From the NCBI RefSeq assembly GCF_036588685.1, contig NC_086373.1, forward strand, positions 36,332,001 through 36,396,000: DNA of 64,000 nucleotides, given 5' to 3'. The stretch comes from Mytilus trossulus. Its lineage: Eukaryota. Numbering within the stretch: position 1 is the stretch's first letter; the number at the start of each line of letters is the position of its first letter. The position numbers are program-made. Positions 60,001 to 63,000 of the stretch are shown in pieces.

Positions 60001-63000
60001 TTCAGGTTCTGGCTATTATTTCAGATCTGTTACAATTATTAAATTGTATAAAACCAACTACAAATCATTAACGTTTGTATGTATCACTTTGTTTCCACAT
60101 CCATTCATTCGAATAATCGCAGAAAAATTCCATAAATATATTTGATTCATTTTCGATCGGTGTGAAATCTTCGTTAAATTCCCAAATCGATAAAACGCCA
60201 TCCCCAAAGTCGTTTCCGTACATCAACGGACTCTGTTGGGTCACTCTAATGGCGCCAGAACATGGAACATAATAGAGTTTACCTTTAACCCATTGACGAC
60301 ATCTTGGTTTACACAATCGTCCGCATGCGTCAGAGGCAGTTATCAAAGCGTCTGTAGGAGTATACGATGTAGGTTTTTCAACAGCGATATACCCGATATG
60401 AGAGGATATTGGAAGTCTGTTGTCAACGAACACATAATCAGTGTATGCACCGAAGTAACTTAATCCAGTAGACTTCAGTCTTACTTTGAATGCACCGGAT
60501 TCATCTTCTTGGCAATTGTAGTATGTTGCTGGATTACCAGGTCGGACAAGCTTTTTTAAATGATTATATTTGTGCTCATCATACATATCATACCTGTTCT
60601 TGTTTCCATTGGTTTCGGACTGTGAAGTAAAGTGGGCCTCTGTTGGACGCAAATGAACAACTTTAATTGGTATAAAGGCCCATCTCTTCACGTCAGCTTT
60701 TGAACAACCTGCTACAAAATTATTCTGAATTGGCTTTCCCATACATGGTTCATGTTCTTGTGGAAAGTAGATGTTTGTTATTTCGGTTGATTGAATTACT
60801 ATAGATACGGTGTTTTTAATAGTAGTAAGATGGATATTAGTGGTGTCTCTTTTTGTCCTCTTTCCTTCATGGTGATCATCTAAATCAAGCTTGACTTTTC
60901 CACCTTGGACGGCTTTCAGATAAGGTGCTACGCTGTGTCTAAATATTCTATCAACAGCAGTACATCTAAAGGACCCATCAATGCGTCGGCATTGCAAATC
61001 AGGTGATCCACAATACAGGTTATGTTGTGAACAAGTAGGTGACATTAAATATTGGGTCAAAGATGCGAGCTCACGACCATATCCGTCCTTGTTGGTCGGA
61101 ATATGTCCAAGAAAATCTACATATGGCATATTTTCTATTGGGACTTCGGCCTCCTGTATTCTTTTGTTAGGTTTAAAAGGATAGTCAATATTGTAATCAT
61201 GGGTATATCTCCATAATTCCCAAGTATAATCTATGTAGGCATGTTGAAACCAGAAAACGCAATCCCATGGTGCTAATTCCAGTAAGGACATTGTACCCCC
61301 TATATAATTGTGAACATTGCCATGAAGCGATTCCATAGTATCGTAACTAGAATCTTCAACTAAATCGTCAATTCTTTGTTTATTCAATACGTATGTTAAA
61401 TTAGTATGTGTAAATAATGCACCACCATTCCCACCATTTCTTATGATTTTATTACCCCTAAGATCCCGAAATCCCCCACAAATACCAGTGTTGACGAATC
61501 CGTTTATTTCCCCAAGGTATTCATTATTCCAGAGTATGGAATTTTCAGGTTTATCCATATTAGCTTCAACAGTGGTGTCCCAATACGGGAGCGATACTTC
61601 TGGATCAAAACTCTGCAAAATTCGTTCTAATCTGTAAAGAAATATTTATAAAATGTAATTCCTTGCAAAATTTCGACATTATTTATATATGTTACAAATC
61701 TAAACATTTTACAAAATATTCTTATCGTAAGTGTGCTATTTGCAAGTCAACTATTGACAAAATAAAATTTTAAGACGCTACCAGTTGATCAAATGTACAG
61801 AAAAAATATTAAATACGATATCGGTAACCAGTTTTGTTTCTTTGTTGACTTTTAAACTTTAGCTAACTTGTTCAATAAGTCTTCAATCTTTCAATTCTTA
61901 ATAAAATATTGCACGCTTCTAAAATACAATGTTCAGAGGTCGTGGAAAAAACAAGAATAAGTCCTGCATGCTAGATTGAAAATTTATGGCACGATGCTTA
62001 AATATTCTTTCTGATTTTTTTTATATTTCTTGTAATAGACATGAGATATACGGATACACGTTTATTTTGTACTTTTGAATACTTATAACCTTCATTTTAC
62101 TTTTTTTATTTACATCGTAAAAAACTTAGCTTTATCATATGACATTTTCCCCAACAGATTAGTTGAAGTTATACGCAGTATCGTGTCTAACAGCCAAAGG
62201 CACAGCATAATAATGAAAGTATGTTTCATCTTGCTTTTTTACAGCATTTGTCCAAAAAAAATCCCGAACACTCTTGCTTGAGGATTGTGAGAGTTTTCAT
62301 CGAGCAAAAACAAGTTAAAAAAACAGATGTTCTTAAAGAATAAGGAAATGTGCATATTTACATCAGTAGTAAAAATCTGTAATAACCAGGAAAGGCAGGT
62401 CCACTTTGTGCAGCATTTCTGCTGTTGTCGTTGTGGAATCTAACAAGCCATCCAAAATACTGCCAATAAAAAGTATACATTATAAAGAAACCGTTAAAAC
62501 ATTTAAGTTTCACAACAAAGTTAGAACAAATCAATAATTAGATAACAATAGGTCGTCTCTGTTTTCTGATGTTTGGTAATGACTCAATGGATCGATTACT
62601 AAGTAGGATGCGTTGTCTTGAATAAGTAAACTTATTCTTGCCGATTACGATATCTTATCTTTACTGCATAGAAACAATGCTTGCTTTCTCTGATTAAATT
62701 TTATTAAAAGCGATAATGTAAAGGTGCAGTGTACCTTTTTTTAGAAATAGACAACAATCGGACCAAAGAAACAGCCAAAAGTCACAAATGGGGTTTCAAC
62801 ACAGCGAAAACAAACTGACCCGGAATGGATATAACACTAAAATCCAGAATATATAAACGAACTTAAATTGAAATAAAAACATACAAAACCAACAACGACC
62901 ATAGTTTATTTATAGGAAAACCATTAAGATATAGACAATTATTGAATTTTTATTTTACAAAGAAATAAAAAAAAATAATGTTTGATACTTTATTATAAAT

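What the first reader, a model, noticed from the sequence alone, without database searches (positions are those of the whole stretch)
62362..62459. TyrD has lost two of three CuA histidines but is otherwise intact: candidate pseudo-tyrosinase
Seen: exon 2 of TyrA, B and C reads FHN..(A/S)HxGPAF(L/P)GYHR, while TyrD reads FHN..AQSGPAFPGYYR (CAA at 62406-62408, TAC at 62379-62381, each one base from CAC). The three CuB His (HGNVH...QH), the splice sites, both furin sites and the 686-aa frame are preserved. Known: type-3 copper oxidases need six His to bind two Cu and O2. Inference: two separate ligand losses with no nonsense damage suggest selection for a non-catalytic role, such as a mononuclear metal binder, catechol-binding scaffold or regulatory partner of the active paralogues. 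This is invisible without the unannotated 98-nt exon.
Basis: partly seen in the sequence, partly recalled or inferred. Interest (0 to 1): 0.8.

Follow-up and report, generated by a model that had tools for sequence, protein, structure and literature searches.

The report
Mussel tyrosinase copy missing two copper ligands
One of four neighbouring mussel tyrosinase genes has replaced two of the six histidines that hold its copper ions, yet is otherwise intact and still kept in shape by selection, so it is a good but not unique candidate for an enzyme relative with a non-enzymatic job.

Summary
The window carries four tandem three-exon tyrosinase-like genes on the minus strand. The 98-nt exon 2 of the fourth (TyrD, 62362-62459) reads AQSGPAFPGYYR where the other three read (A/S)HxGPAF(L/P)GYHR. 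Codons and coordinates are as stated.

Q151 and Y160 sit at the second and third CuA histidine positions. The three CuB histidines, GT-AG splice sites, both R-T-K-R sites and a 686-codon frame are intact.

It is no assembly slip and not unannotated. A public Mytilus galloprovincialis protein of 686 aa (P0001) carries the same exon 2, 32 of 32 residues.

TyrD is not decaying. It is not faster than its sister TyrC. It differs from P0001 no more than the His-complete TyrB differs from its orthologue on the same contig. Those recent differences avoid conserved sites (3 of 15, 8.3 expected, P=0.006).

Ligand loss recurs in the family: 5 of 77 representatives with a well-aligned site.

Best reading: a secreted paralogue without canonical oxidase chemistry, retained under selection. 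Activity, metal content and expression remain untested. Moderate interest.

The parts
60068..63566 (-). TyrD gene, start codon to stop codon: three exons, 686 codons
   Evidence: Exon bounds, GT-AG introns of 708 and 730 nt, ATG 63564-63566, TAA 60068-60070. 97% identical in exon 3 and 32/32 in exon 2 to public protein P0001.
63168..63566 (-). TyrD exon 1 (133 codons): hydrophobic N-terminus, helical Cys-containing N-terminal region, first R-T-K-R site (residues 97-100, 63267-63278)
   Evidence: Donor GTAAGT. 125 of 133 residues identical to P0001. R-x-[KR]-R is present at this place in 47 of 54 family representatives that have the N-terminal region. The signal-peptide reading is by eye, no predictor was run.
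62362..62459 (-). TyrD exon 2 (98 nt): the whole CuA motif
62433..62435 (-). CAC, His142 = CuA ligand 1, retained
62406..62408 (-). CAA, Gln151 at the CuA ligand-2 position (His in TyrA, B, C and in 73 of the 79 family sequences with a residue at this column)
62379..62381 (-). TAC, Tyr160 at the CuA ligand-3 position (the H of the G(Y/W)HR motif; His in 73 of the 83 family sequences with a residue at this column)
60068..61631 (-). TyrD exon 3 (1564 nt with stop): rest of the tyrosinase core, Cys-rich linker, second R-T-K-R site (residues 424-427, 60848-60859), C-terminal domain (residues 428-686, 60071-60847)
   Evidence: PF00264 E=7e-17. The C-terminal 259 aa have no Pfam or PDB sequence match but are present in 136 of 153 aligned family representatives.
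61241..61324 (-). CuB site: His269 (61322-61324), His273 (61310-61312), His296 (61241-61243), all retained, with Phe292 and Asp300
51212..54822 (-). TyrC, sister paralogue with complete CuA (exon 2 at 53610-53707), 682 codons by the same model
38520..44352 (-). TyrB, paralogue with complete CuA (exon 2 at 41220-41317), 684 codons; orthologues P0003 and P0004
4340..15192 (-). TyrA, paralogue with complete CuA (exon 2 at 6759-6856), 684 codons, first intron 7937 nt; closest public protein P0002 (M. coruscus TYR)

Best explanation
TyrD is a secreted tyrosinase-like paralogue in a four-gene tandem cluster of a Mytilus genome. It has lost the canonical binuclear copper centre but is retained under purifying selection. 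Shown: its precursor has the same layout as TyrA-C, namely a hydrophobic N-terminus, a helical N-terminal region, an R-T-K-R site in a disordered loop, a four-helix-bundle tyrosinase core, a Cys-rich linker, a second R-T-K-R in a disordered loop and a conserved beta-rich C-terminal domain. Shown: only His142 remains on the CuA side (Gln151, Tyr160), while the CuB triad His269/His273/His296 and the flanking Phe, Arg, Glu and Asp residues are kept. Inferred: without three CuA histidines the protein cannot hold the second copper in the geometry needed for the side-on peroxide. It therefore does not hydroxylate tyrosine or oxidise DOPA by the standard mechanism, and at most it holds one metal ion at CuB. 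Inferred: because the core and the C-terminal domain are both still constrained, it works by binding rather than turnover. The most likely role is as a partner or holder of Tyr/DOPA-rich byssal precursor proteins, or of its active paralogues, in the foot glands.
For: Q151 and Y160 align under CuA His2 and His3 of mollusc hemocyanin units and of the family profile. The same residues are in public protein P0001, which differs from the window's TyrD at 15 of 520 exon-3 and 8 of 133 exon-1 residues, so this is neither an assembly error nor a private change. All three exons are open with GT-AG introns. Long-term constraint: exon-3 dN/dS between TyrC and TyrD is 0.24 (dS 0.84). Tajima relative-rate counts are 40 (C) vs 44 (D) with outgroup A, P=0.66, and 36 vs 37 with outgroup B, P=0.91. 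Constraint after the loss: TyrD vs P0001 has 15/520 differences, against 17/517 for TyrB vs P0003 from the same 148-kb contig. Only 3 of the 15 fall at the 282 of 512 sites where the other three paralogues agree (8.3 expected, P=0.0056), the same pattern as TyrB (2 of 16, P=0.00035). The tyrosinase core part of exon 3 has 3 differences in 141 sites against 4 for TyrB, and exon 2 has none. AlphaFold2 model of P0001: pLDDT 88.7, pTM 0.89. H142 lies in helix 134-149, Q151 in the following loop, Y160 in helix 156-174, HB1/HB2 in helix 265-276 and HB3 in helix 290-309. Best solved match is Bacillus megaterium tyrosinase, E about 1e-13, target TM 0.73-0.77. Precedent read in passages of PMC11667028: a M. 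galloprovincialis catechol-oxidase-like protein had no oxidase activity and acted as a thiol-dependent antioxidant (their ref. 59, not read by me).
Against: No activity, metal or expression data exist for this protein in anything I could reach. The abstract of PMC7144311 says single CuA-His mutants of human tyrosinase kept about 50% hydroxylase and unchanged dopa oxidase activity, so CuA damage need not be lethal to catalysis. Gln and Tyr side chains can ligate copper in other proteins (my recall). Constraint after the loss rests on one pair of genomes and on protein differences only, because I had no DNA for P0001 and so no dN/dS on that branch. The per-domain tests have little power (core part P=0.48). 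No TyrD orthologue beyond that cluster was found, so the age of the loss is unknown.
Confidence: 0.5

Rival explanations
1. TyrD is still an oxidase. Either a His-Gln-Tyr CuA site still binds copper, or the CuB site with a weakened CuA site suffices for catechol oxidation, giving an enzyme with altered substrate range or redox tuning rather than a pseudoenzyme.
For: PMC7144311 (abstract read): CuA-His mutants of human tyrosinase retained dopa oxidase activity. The tyrosinase core of TyrD, including all CuB ligands, Phe156, Arg161, Glu168, Glu266, Phe292 and Asp300, is conserved and evolves no faster than TyrB's. The model keeps the four-helix bundle with high confidence.
Against: Two of three ligands of one copper are gone at once. 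In the family these positions are His in 73 of 79 and 73 of 83 sequences with a residue there. Reviews read in passages (PMC3658974, PMC11803259) define the class by three His per copper.
Confidence: 0.2
2. The selected function lies only in the C-terminal domain or the N-terminal region released at the dibasic sites. The tyrosinase core of TyrD is then merely a folding scaffold or carrier whose chemistry no longer matters.
For: The C-terminal part is the most conserved part of all four paralogues (dN/dS 0.06-0.17 against 0.10-0.32 for the tyrosinase part). It is present in 136 of 153 aligned family representatives. Both R-T-K-R sites lie in low-confidence, probably exposed loops.
Against: The core of TyrD shows no excess of recent changes (3 of 141 sites, against 4 of 141 in TyrB; exon 2 0 of 32). 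Cleavage at the sites is untested. The second site has an R-x-[KR]-R motif in only 56 of 127 family members.
Confidence: 0.15
3. TyrD is a recently disabled gene on its way to becoming a pseudogene or a dispensable presence/absence gene. It looks intact only because too little time has passed.
For: Only two genomes were compared. No TyrD-like protein was found outside P0001's 90% cluster, and no TyrC orthologue at all, which hints at variable gene content in this cluster. No protein-level evidence was found. If Medu-TYR4 is its orthologue (unverified), no peptides of it were detected in byssus or foot (PMC11667028, Table 1).
Against: Recent differences avoid conserved sites (P=0.0056) and are no more numerous than in TyrB. 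There is no acceleration relative to TyrC. There are no stops or frameshifts in 2061 nt in either genome.
Confidence: 0.12
4. Artefact: sequencing or assembly errors at two codons, or a wrong exon choice.
For: Each codon is a single base from His.
Against: Exon 2 is identical, 32 of 32 residues, in an independently derived public protein whose other exons differ at 23 residues. Splice sites and reading phase match the three paralogues.
Confidence: 0.02

Closest known systems
Mytilid 'clade I' byssal/foot tyrosinases (Medu-TYR1 to 4 of M. edulis; M. coruscus byssal tyrosinase KX268645), PMC11667028
   Same: Secreted bivalve alpha-subclass tyrosinases of about 680-700 aa. Four M. edulis foot transcripts share one M. 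coruscus best hit, as would be expected of a tandem cluster. Medu-TYR4 is exactly 686 aa, like TyrD. It has FPKM 32.9, in situ signal in plaque and cuticle glands, and no peptides detected (Table 1 and the in situ section, read).
   Different: The link is by length, clade and species only. I could not see the Medu-TYR sequences because supplements are closed. The passages I searched do not mention missing copper ligands ('histidine' occurs 0 times in its main text).
Arthropod hexamerins (hemocyanin relatives without copper)
   Same: Type-3 copper proteins that lost copper binding and were kept for another role, storage (abstract beginnings of PMC2861669 and PMC6850205 in the listing).
   Different: A different subclass (PF00372 rather than PF00264, per the PMC11803259 passage). 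They are old, abundant and well studied. TyrD has lost only two ligands of one site and is one young paralogue.
M. galloprovincialis polyphenol-oxidase-like protein with thiol-mediated antioxidant activity (Wang, Suhre and Scheibel 2019)
   Same: A mussel foot tyrosinase-like protein reported to lack oxidase activity and to suppress DOPA oxidation, which is a precedent for a non-oxidase role.
   Different: Known to me only through the sentence and reference in PMC11667028. Its closest M. edulis homologue, Medu-TYR15, is 561 aa and in clade IV, so it is another branch of the family. I do not know whether its histidines are complete.
Vertebrate tyrosinase-related proteins TYRP1/TYRP2
   Same: Tyrosinase paralogues with changed metal use and changed chemistry that act alongside the active enzyme (passages of PMC3658974 and PMC11803259). 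TYRP1 chains appear among the structural matches.
   Different: They keep all six histidines and bind zinc. TyrD has lost two.
Bacillus (Priestia) megaterium tyrosinase, e.g. 3nm8, 4d87, 4p6r
   Same: Closest solved fold: E about 1e-13, target TM 0.73-0.77, 26-28% identity over about 290 columns. Sequence E about 3e-20.
   Different: A bacterial 290-aa enzyme with six histidines and no N-terminal region or C-terminal domain.

Membership tests
Type-3 copper / tyrosinase superfamily (Pfam PF00264), by homology and fold | Significant match to the PF00264 profile | tested here: met
   Exon 3 of TyrD: E=7.3e-17, 62.9 bits against a cut-off of 22.6.
Type-3 copper / tyrosinase superfamily (Pfam PF00264), by homology and fold | Four-helix-bundle core resembling solved tyrosinases | tested here: met
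   Model pLDDT 88.7. Foldseek finds B. megaterium tyrosinase at E 4.6e-13, target TM up to 0.77.
Functional binuclear type-3 copper centre | CuA motif H1-(n)-H2-(8)-H3 (as given in PMC3658974) | tested here: not met
   H142, Q151, Y160. The spacing is kept but two histidines are replaced.
Functional binuclear type-3 copper centre | CuB motif H1-(3)-H2-(n)-H3 | tested here: met
   H269, H273, H296.
Functional binuclear type-3 copper centre | Phe four residues before H3 in both sites and Asp four after CuB H3 (PMC3658974); conserved Arg and Glu at CuA (PMC11803259) | tested here: met
   F156, F292, D300, R161, E168.
Functional binuclear type-3 copper centre | Binds two copper ions and dioxygen | not testable with these tools
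   No metal or activity data.
Mollusc 'type a' PPO (PMC11803259) | Short distance (7-9 residues) between CuA positions 1 and 2; mostly with signal peptide; no thioether Cys | tested here: met
   Positions 142 and 151 are separated by eight residues. There is a hydrophobic N-terminus and no Cys near position 151. Placement in the paper's tree was not tested.
Mytilid clade I foot tyrosinases (PMC11667028) | Sequence identity with a Medu-TYR1-4 transcript | not testable with these tools
   The sequences are in closed supplements. Only the equal length (686 aa, Medu-TYR4) is known.
Pseudoenzyme | Clear homologue of an enzyme with essential catalytic or cofactor residues replaced | tested here: met
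Pseudoenzyme | Maintained by purifying selection after the loss | tested here: met
   One genome pair, protein level only.
Pseudoenzyme | Expressed as a protein and lacking the ancestral activity | not testable with these tools
   No expression or activity data. One search found no spliced fragments.
Decaying pseudogene | Stops, frameshifts, lost splice sites or neutral substitution pattern | tested here: not met
   0 stops in 686 codons and GT-AG at both introns. Differences avoid conserved sites.

The most novel reading that the evidence does not exclude
The retained CuB triad (three histidines, one metal ion) with a tyrosine side chain now placed where the third CuA ligand was is not a ruin but a new active site. 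It would be a mononuclear copper centre next to a tyrosine, the arrangement in which copper amine oxidases turn a tyrosine of their own into a quinone cofactor (my recall, untested here). TyrD would then be a self-modified quinone or DOPA-bearing protein, or a one-copper redox buffer that keeps byssal DOPA reduced in the plaque and cuticle glands. Because about one in fifteen family representatives has also lost ligands, such conversions would be a recurrent route in mollusc tyrosinase expansions.
Probability: 0.05. Interest if true: 0.85.

Novelty: new member of a known kind. Interest (0 to 1): 0.42.

Why it matters
Mussels carry very large tyrosinase families: 79 'type a' genes in M. edulis according to a passage of PMC11803259. 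Which copies make DOPA, which oxidise it and which do neither is an open practical question for byssus adhesion and its imitation.

TyrD is a clean natural case. It is one member of a four-gene cluster whose other members are complete. It has exactly two ligand replacements and shows continued constraint. That gives a well-controlled comparison of active and probably inactive paralogues, and a warning that counts of 'tyrosinases' in bivalve genomes include members that probably cannot do the chemistry.

The family-wide tally (5 of 77 with replaced ligands in good alignment) suggests the phenomenon is general and, in the papers I could search, unremarked.

Tried and rejected
Structure with a shallow alignment: the first AlphaFold2 run used 7 sequences and gave pLDDT 32.4. 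It was discarded.

Sequence searches of its 259 aa found nothing in Pfam or PDB at E up to 10. The ESM Atlas gave one hit at 0.78, below the level that shuffled sequences often reach, so it was ignored. Whole-model hits to hemocyanin units over about 585 columns had rmsd 15-16 and were not interpreted.

Dating the loss: searches with TyrD exon 3 (7 hits at E<=1e-10 among 3884 candidates) and TyrC exon 3 (11 among 4214) found no TyrD-like protein outside P0001's cluster and no TyrC orthologue. The cluster's 21 members could not be listed.

Evidence of transcription: a search for short proteins matching residues 105-205 of P0001, which span both exon junctions, had 4 candidates and none scored.

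dN/dS on the TyrD branch after the loss: not possible, since no DNA of another Mytilus genome was reachable. Genome contigs holds bacteria and archaea only, and the BLAST collections hold phages, plasmids and E. coli, so none of them was used. I substituted protein-level comparisons. Synonymous distances between the A/B and C/D pairs are saturated (dS 1.2-2.6), so only the C-D value is quoted as meaningful.

HB1+1 residue: Gly270 in TyrD against Asp in A-C looked like a third active-site change. Gly is the commonest residue there in the family (57 of 140), so this was dropped.

Family rows dropped: P0084 and P0137 (3422 and 2619 aa, hemocyanin-sized) were left out of the 153-row alignment. P0089, P0098 and P0153, and the partial P0025, P0095, P0107, P0150 and P0151, show non-His residues without local similarity. 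I took them for mis-modelled exons or truncations and did not count them as ligand loss.

Literature: searches turned up no paper describing a mussel tyrosinase paralogue lacking CuA histidines. This covers open-access papers only and is not proof of absence. Aguilera et al. 2014 on bivalve tyrosinases was not available to me.

All searches with window sequence were exon by exon, and full-length work used the public protein P0001.
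Full report
**1. What is in the window**

The 64-kb window is AT-rich (GC 0.29-0.37) and has no N. It carries four paralogous genes in tandem on the minus strand. Each has a 133-134-codon first exon, a 98-nt second exon and a last exon of about 1.55 kb.

| Gene | Span | Exon 2 | Codons |
|---|---|---|---|
| TyrA | 4340-15192 | 6759-6856 | 684 |
| TyrB | 38520-44352 | 41220-41317 | 684 |
| TyrC | 51212-54822 | 53610-53707 | 682 |
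| TyrD | 60068-63566 | 62362-62459 | 686 |

All eight introns have GT-AG ends, and the reading phases agree between copies. The last exons match Pfam PF00264 (tyrosinase) with E from 7e-13 to 2e-17.

The closest public proteins are from Mytilus:
- P0001, M. galloprovincialis 'hypothetical predicted protein', 686 aa
- P0002, M. coruscus TYR
- P0003, M. galloprovincialis tyrosinase
- P0004, M. edulis uncharacterized protein

The window's copies are 96-97% identical to the M. galloprovincialis and M. edulis proteins and 92% to the M. coruscus one. The window therefore comes from a Mytilus genome that is not identical to any of those references. I did not try to name it further.

**2. The observation**

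It is correct in every checkable detail.
- Exon 2 of TyrD translates to YFGWLVRFHNDNSRNAAQSGPAFPGYYRFLLL.
- The three other exon-2 copies read ...AHSGPAFLGYHR...AHHGPAFLGYHR and ...SHNGPAFPGYHR.
- The Gln codon CAA is at 62406-62408 and the Tyr codon TAC at 62379-62381. The paralogues have CAC or CAT at both places.
- The frame is 399 + 98 + 1564 nt = 686 codons plus TAA.
- CuB is complete: H269, H273 and H296. So are Phe156, Arg161, Glu168, Glu266, Phe292 and Asp300, the residues that two reviews name as conserved around the two sites (passages of PMC3658974 and PMC11803259).
- R-T-K-R occurs at residues 97-100 and 424-427.

Alignments with mollusc hemocyanin units place Gln151 under the second CuA histidine and Tyr160 under the H of the WHR motif, the third. 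The family profile gives the same assignment.

One clause of the finding is wrong. The exon is not invisible in public annotation, because P0001 contains it letter for letter (32 of 32).

**3. Artefact or rare slip?**

P0001 differs from the window's TyrD at 15 of 520 exon-3 residues and 8 of 133 exon-1 residues, so it comes from a different genome. It nevertheless has the same Gln and Tyr. The replacements therefore predate the split of these two genomes.

**4. Is the gene decaying?**

Three tests say no.

(a) Long term. In exon 3 the TyrC-TyrD pair has dN 0.20, dS 0.84 and dN/dS 0.24. Lineage-specific amino-acid changes are balanced: 40 in C against 44 in D with TyrA as outgroup (P=0.66), and 36 against 37 with TyrB (P=0.91). 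Had TyrD been neutral for most of its history, it should carry several times more changes than TyrC.

(b) Recent, by amount. Between the window and the M. galloprovincialis contig that holds both P0001 and P0003, TyrD differs at 15 of 520 exon-3 residues. The His-complete TyrB differs at 17 of 517. For exon 1 the figures are 8 of 133 against 10 of 134.

(c) Recent, by pattern. Only 3 of the 15 TyrD differences fall on the 282 of 512 sites where the other three paralogues agree. The expected number is 8.3 (hypergeometric P=0.0056). TyrB shows 2 of 16 (P=0.00035) and TyrA against M. coruscus shows 7 of 41 (P=6e-7).

Both genomes already carry Gln151 and Tyr160, so this constraint acted after the ligands were lost.

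Split by region, the numbers are small. The tyrosinase core part of exon 3 has 3 differences in 141 sites for TyrD against 4 for TyrB. Tyrosinase part plus linker has 2 of 12 at conserved sites (P=0.03). The C-terminal domain has 3 differences in each gene. There is no sign that the core alone has been released, but the power is low.

Limits:
- only one pair of genomes was available;
- the comparison is at protein level, with no DNA of a second Mytilus genome in reach;
- possible gene conversion between paralogues was not examined.

**5. Structure**

With a 147-sequence alignment of family representatives, AlphaFold2 gives a confident model of P0001 (pLDDT 88.7, pTM 0.89). A 7-sequence alignment had failed.

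The copper positions lie where a type-3 centre has them:

| Position | Location in the model |
|---|---|
| H142 | helix 134-149 |
| Q151 | loop after that helix |
| Y160 | helix 156-174 |
| H269, H273 | helix 265-276 |
| H296 | helix 290-309 |

Low confidence is confined to the N-terminus, residues 91-100, the stretch 401-460 (below 50 at 419-437) and the last three residues. Both R-T-K-R sites therefore sit in probably disordered loops, as processing sites would. Cleavage itself is inference.

The best solved matches are Bacillus megaterium tyrosinases (E about 1e-13, target TM 0.73-0.77), then Streptomyces tyrosinases, hemocyanin units and human TYRP1. In all, 104 matches had E<=0.001. I had no access to the coordinates, so side-chain geometry at the site was not examined.

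**6. The family**

A profile of seven close relatives found 6365 proteins at E<=1e-3 and 314 at E<=1e-30 among 1.84 billion cluster representatives. I aligned 153 of the 155 proteins held, dropping two hemocyanin-sized ones.
- 136 of 153 have the C-terminal domain and 141 have the CuB region.
- Only 77 have the CuA region. Its absence in 54 otherwise good models suggests that the short CuA exon is often missed by gene prediction.
- Of those 77, 69 have all six histidines.
- Of the eight others, three look like model errors (P0089, P0098, P0153).
- The remaining five have replaced ligands inside a well-aligned motif: P0001 (H-Q-Y), P0136 (second CuA His to Asn), P0026 (third CuA His to Asn, and two CuB His replaced), P0104 (all three CuA and one or two CuB) and P0058 (two CuB).
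- Three CuA-less models (P0091, P0142, P0146) also have CuB replacements.

Ligand loss is thus recurrent, roughly one representative in fifteen, and TyrD is the mildest case. The library has no names, so I cannot say from which animals these come or whether some are pseudogenes.

The C-terminal 259 residues of TyrD match no Pfam family and no PDB sequence at E up to 10. They are nevertheless the most conserved part of the four paralogues (dN/dS 0.06-0.17).

**7. Literature**

PMC11667028 was read in found passages and in its transcriptomics section with Table 1. It lists four M. edulis foot transcripts of 'clade I' (Medu-TYR1-4; 702, 678, 489 and 686 aa), all with the same M. coruscus byssal tyrosinase as best hit.

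Medu-TYR4 has exactly TyrD's length and an FPKM of 32.9. It gives in situ signal in plaque and cuticle glands, and no peptides of it were found in byssus or foot. This is a lead that the cluster in the window is that clade and that TyrD is transcribed. It rests on length alone, because the sequences are in supplements I could not open.

The same paper cites a report that a M. galloprovincialis PPO-like protein lacks oxidase activity and acts as a thiol-dependent antioxidant (Wang et al. 2019, not read).

PMC11803259 (passages) counts 79 type-a PPOs in M. edulis. It gives the 7-9-residue spacing of the first two CuA histidines for that type, which TyrD keeps.

PMC7144311 (abstract) reports that CuA-His mutants of human tyrosinase keep part of their activity. 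This counts against calling TyrD dead on sequence alone.

Hexamerins are the classical copper-less relatives in the arthropod branch (listing).

In four searches I found no description of a mussel tyrosinase lacking CuA histidines.

**8. Verdict**

TyrD is a real, intact, constrained paralogue whose CuA site has lost two of three histidines.

The most likely reading (0.5) is a secreted protein without canonical oxidase chemistry, retained for a binding or partner role in the same setting as its active neighbours. The rivals are:
- an enzyme with an altered site (0.2);
- a carrier for the C-terminal domain (0.15);
- a recently disabled gene (0.12);
- an artefact (0.02).

It is a new member of a known kind, a type-3 copper protein that has given up copper ligands, and it already sits unremarked in public databases. 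Interest is moderate. The value lies in the clean four-gene comparison, the evidence of constraint after the loss, and the hint that such losses recur in mollusc tyrosinase expansions.

Noticed in passing
window 60071-60847 (-) and the equivalent parts of TyrA-C (about 4343-5120, 38523-39300, 51215-51990): A beta-rich C-terminal domain of about 220-260 aa follows the tyrosinase core. It is the most conserved part of the four genes (dN/dS 0.06-0.17) and is present in 136 of 153 aligned family representatives. It has no Pfam family and no PDB sequence match at E up to 10. Its fold could not be compared separately.
   Followed up: partly
window 18123-18203 (-): A short stretch between TyrA and TyrB translates to something like residues 52-78 of TyrD exon 1 (48% identity, E=1.5e-6). 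It may be a relic of a fifth, lost paralogue.
   Followed up: no
window 17939-18172 (-): A 77-aa ORF next to that relic gives a below-threshold match to reverse transcriptase RVT_1 (E=5.9e-5, 23.3 bits against a cut-off of 29.6). It is probably a retroelement fragment and was not pursued.
   Followed up: no
window 51212-54822 (-), TyrC: TyrC is intact here, with six histidines. A search with its exon 3 found no closer public protein than P0001 at 69% identity, among proteins of 283-903 aa. It may be unannotated, split or absent in the public Mytilus gene sets.
   Followed up: partly
window 6857-14793 (-): The first intron of TyrA is 7937 nt, against 708-2633 nt in the other three genes. Its content was not examined.
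   Followed up: no
window 17197-17586, 19459-19829, 34575-34891: The 23-kb spacer between TyrA and TyrB holds tandem repeats with 193-, 199- and 55/112-nt units. No Rfam family reaches threshold anywhere in the window.
   Followed up: no
family representatives P0005-P0155 (no window coordinates): 54 of 153 aligned family proteins have CuB and mostly the C-terminal domain but lack the CuA region entirely. This suggests that the short CuA exon is often missed in gene models or lies off the contig, so counts of 'complete' tyrosinases from annotations may be biased.
   Followed up: partly
window 60071-60085 (-), C-terminal end of TyrD: TyrA-C end with W-K-x-C, but TyrD has W-K-Q-S here and W-K-Q-R in P0001, so the last cysteine is missing in TyrD. 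Two of the 15 differences from P0001 lie in this tail.
   Followed up: no
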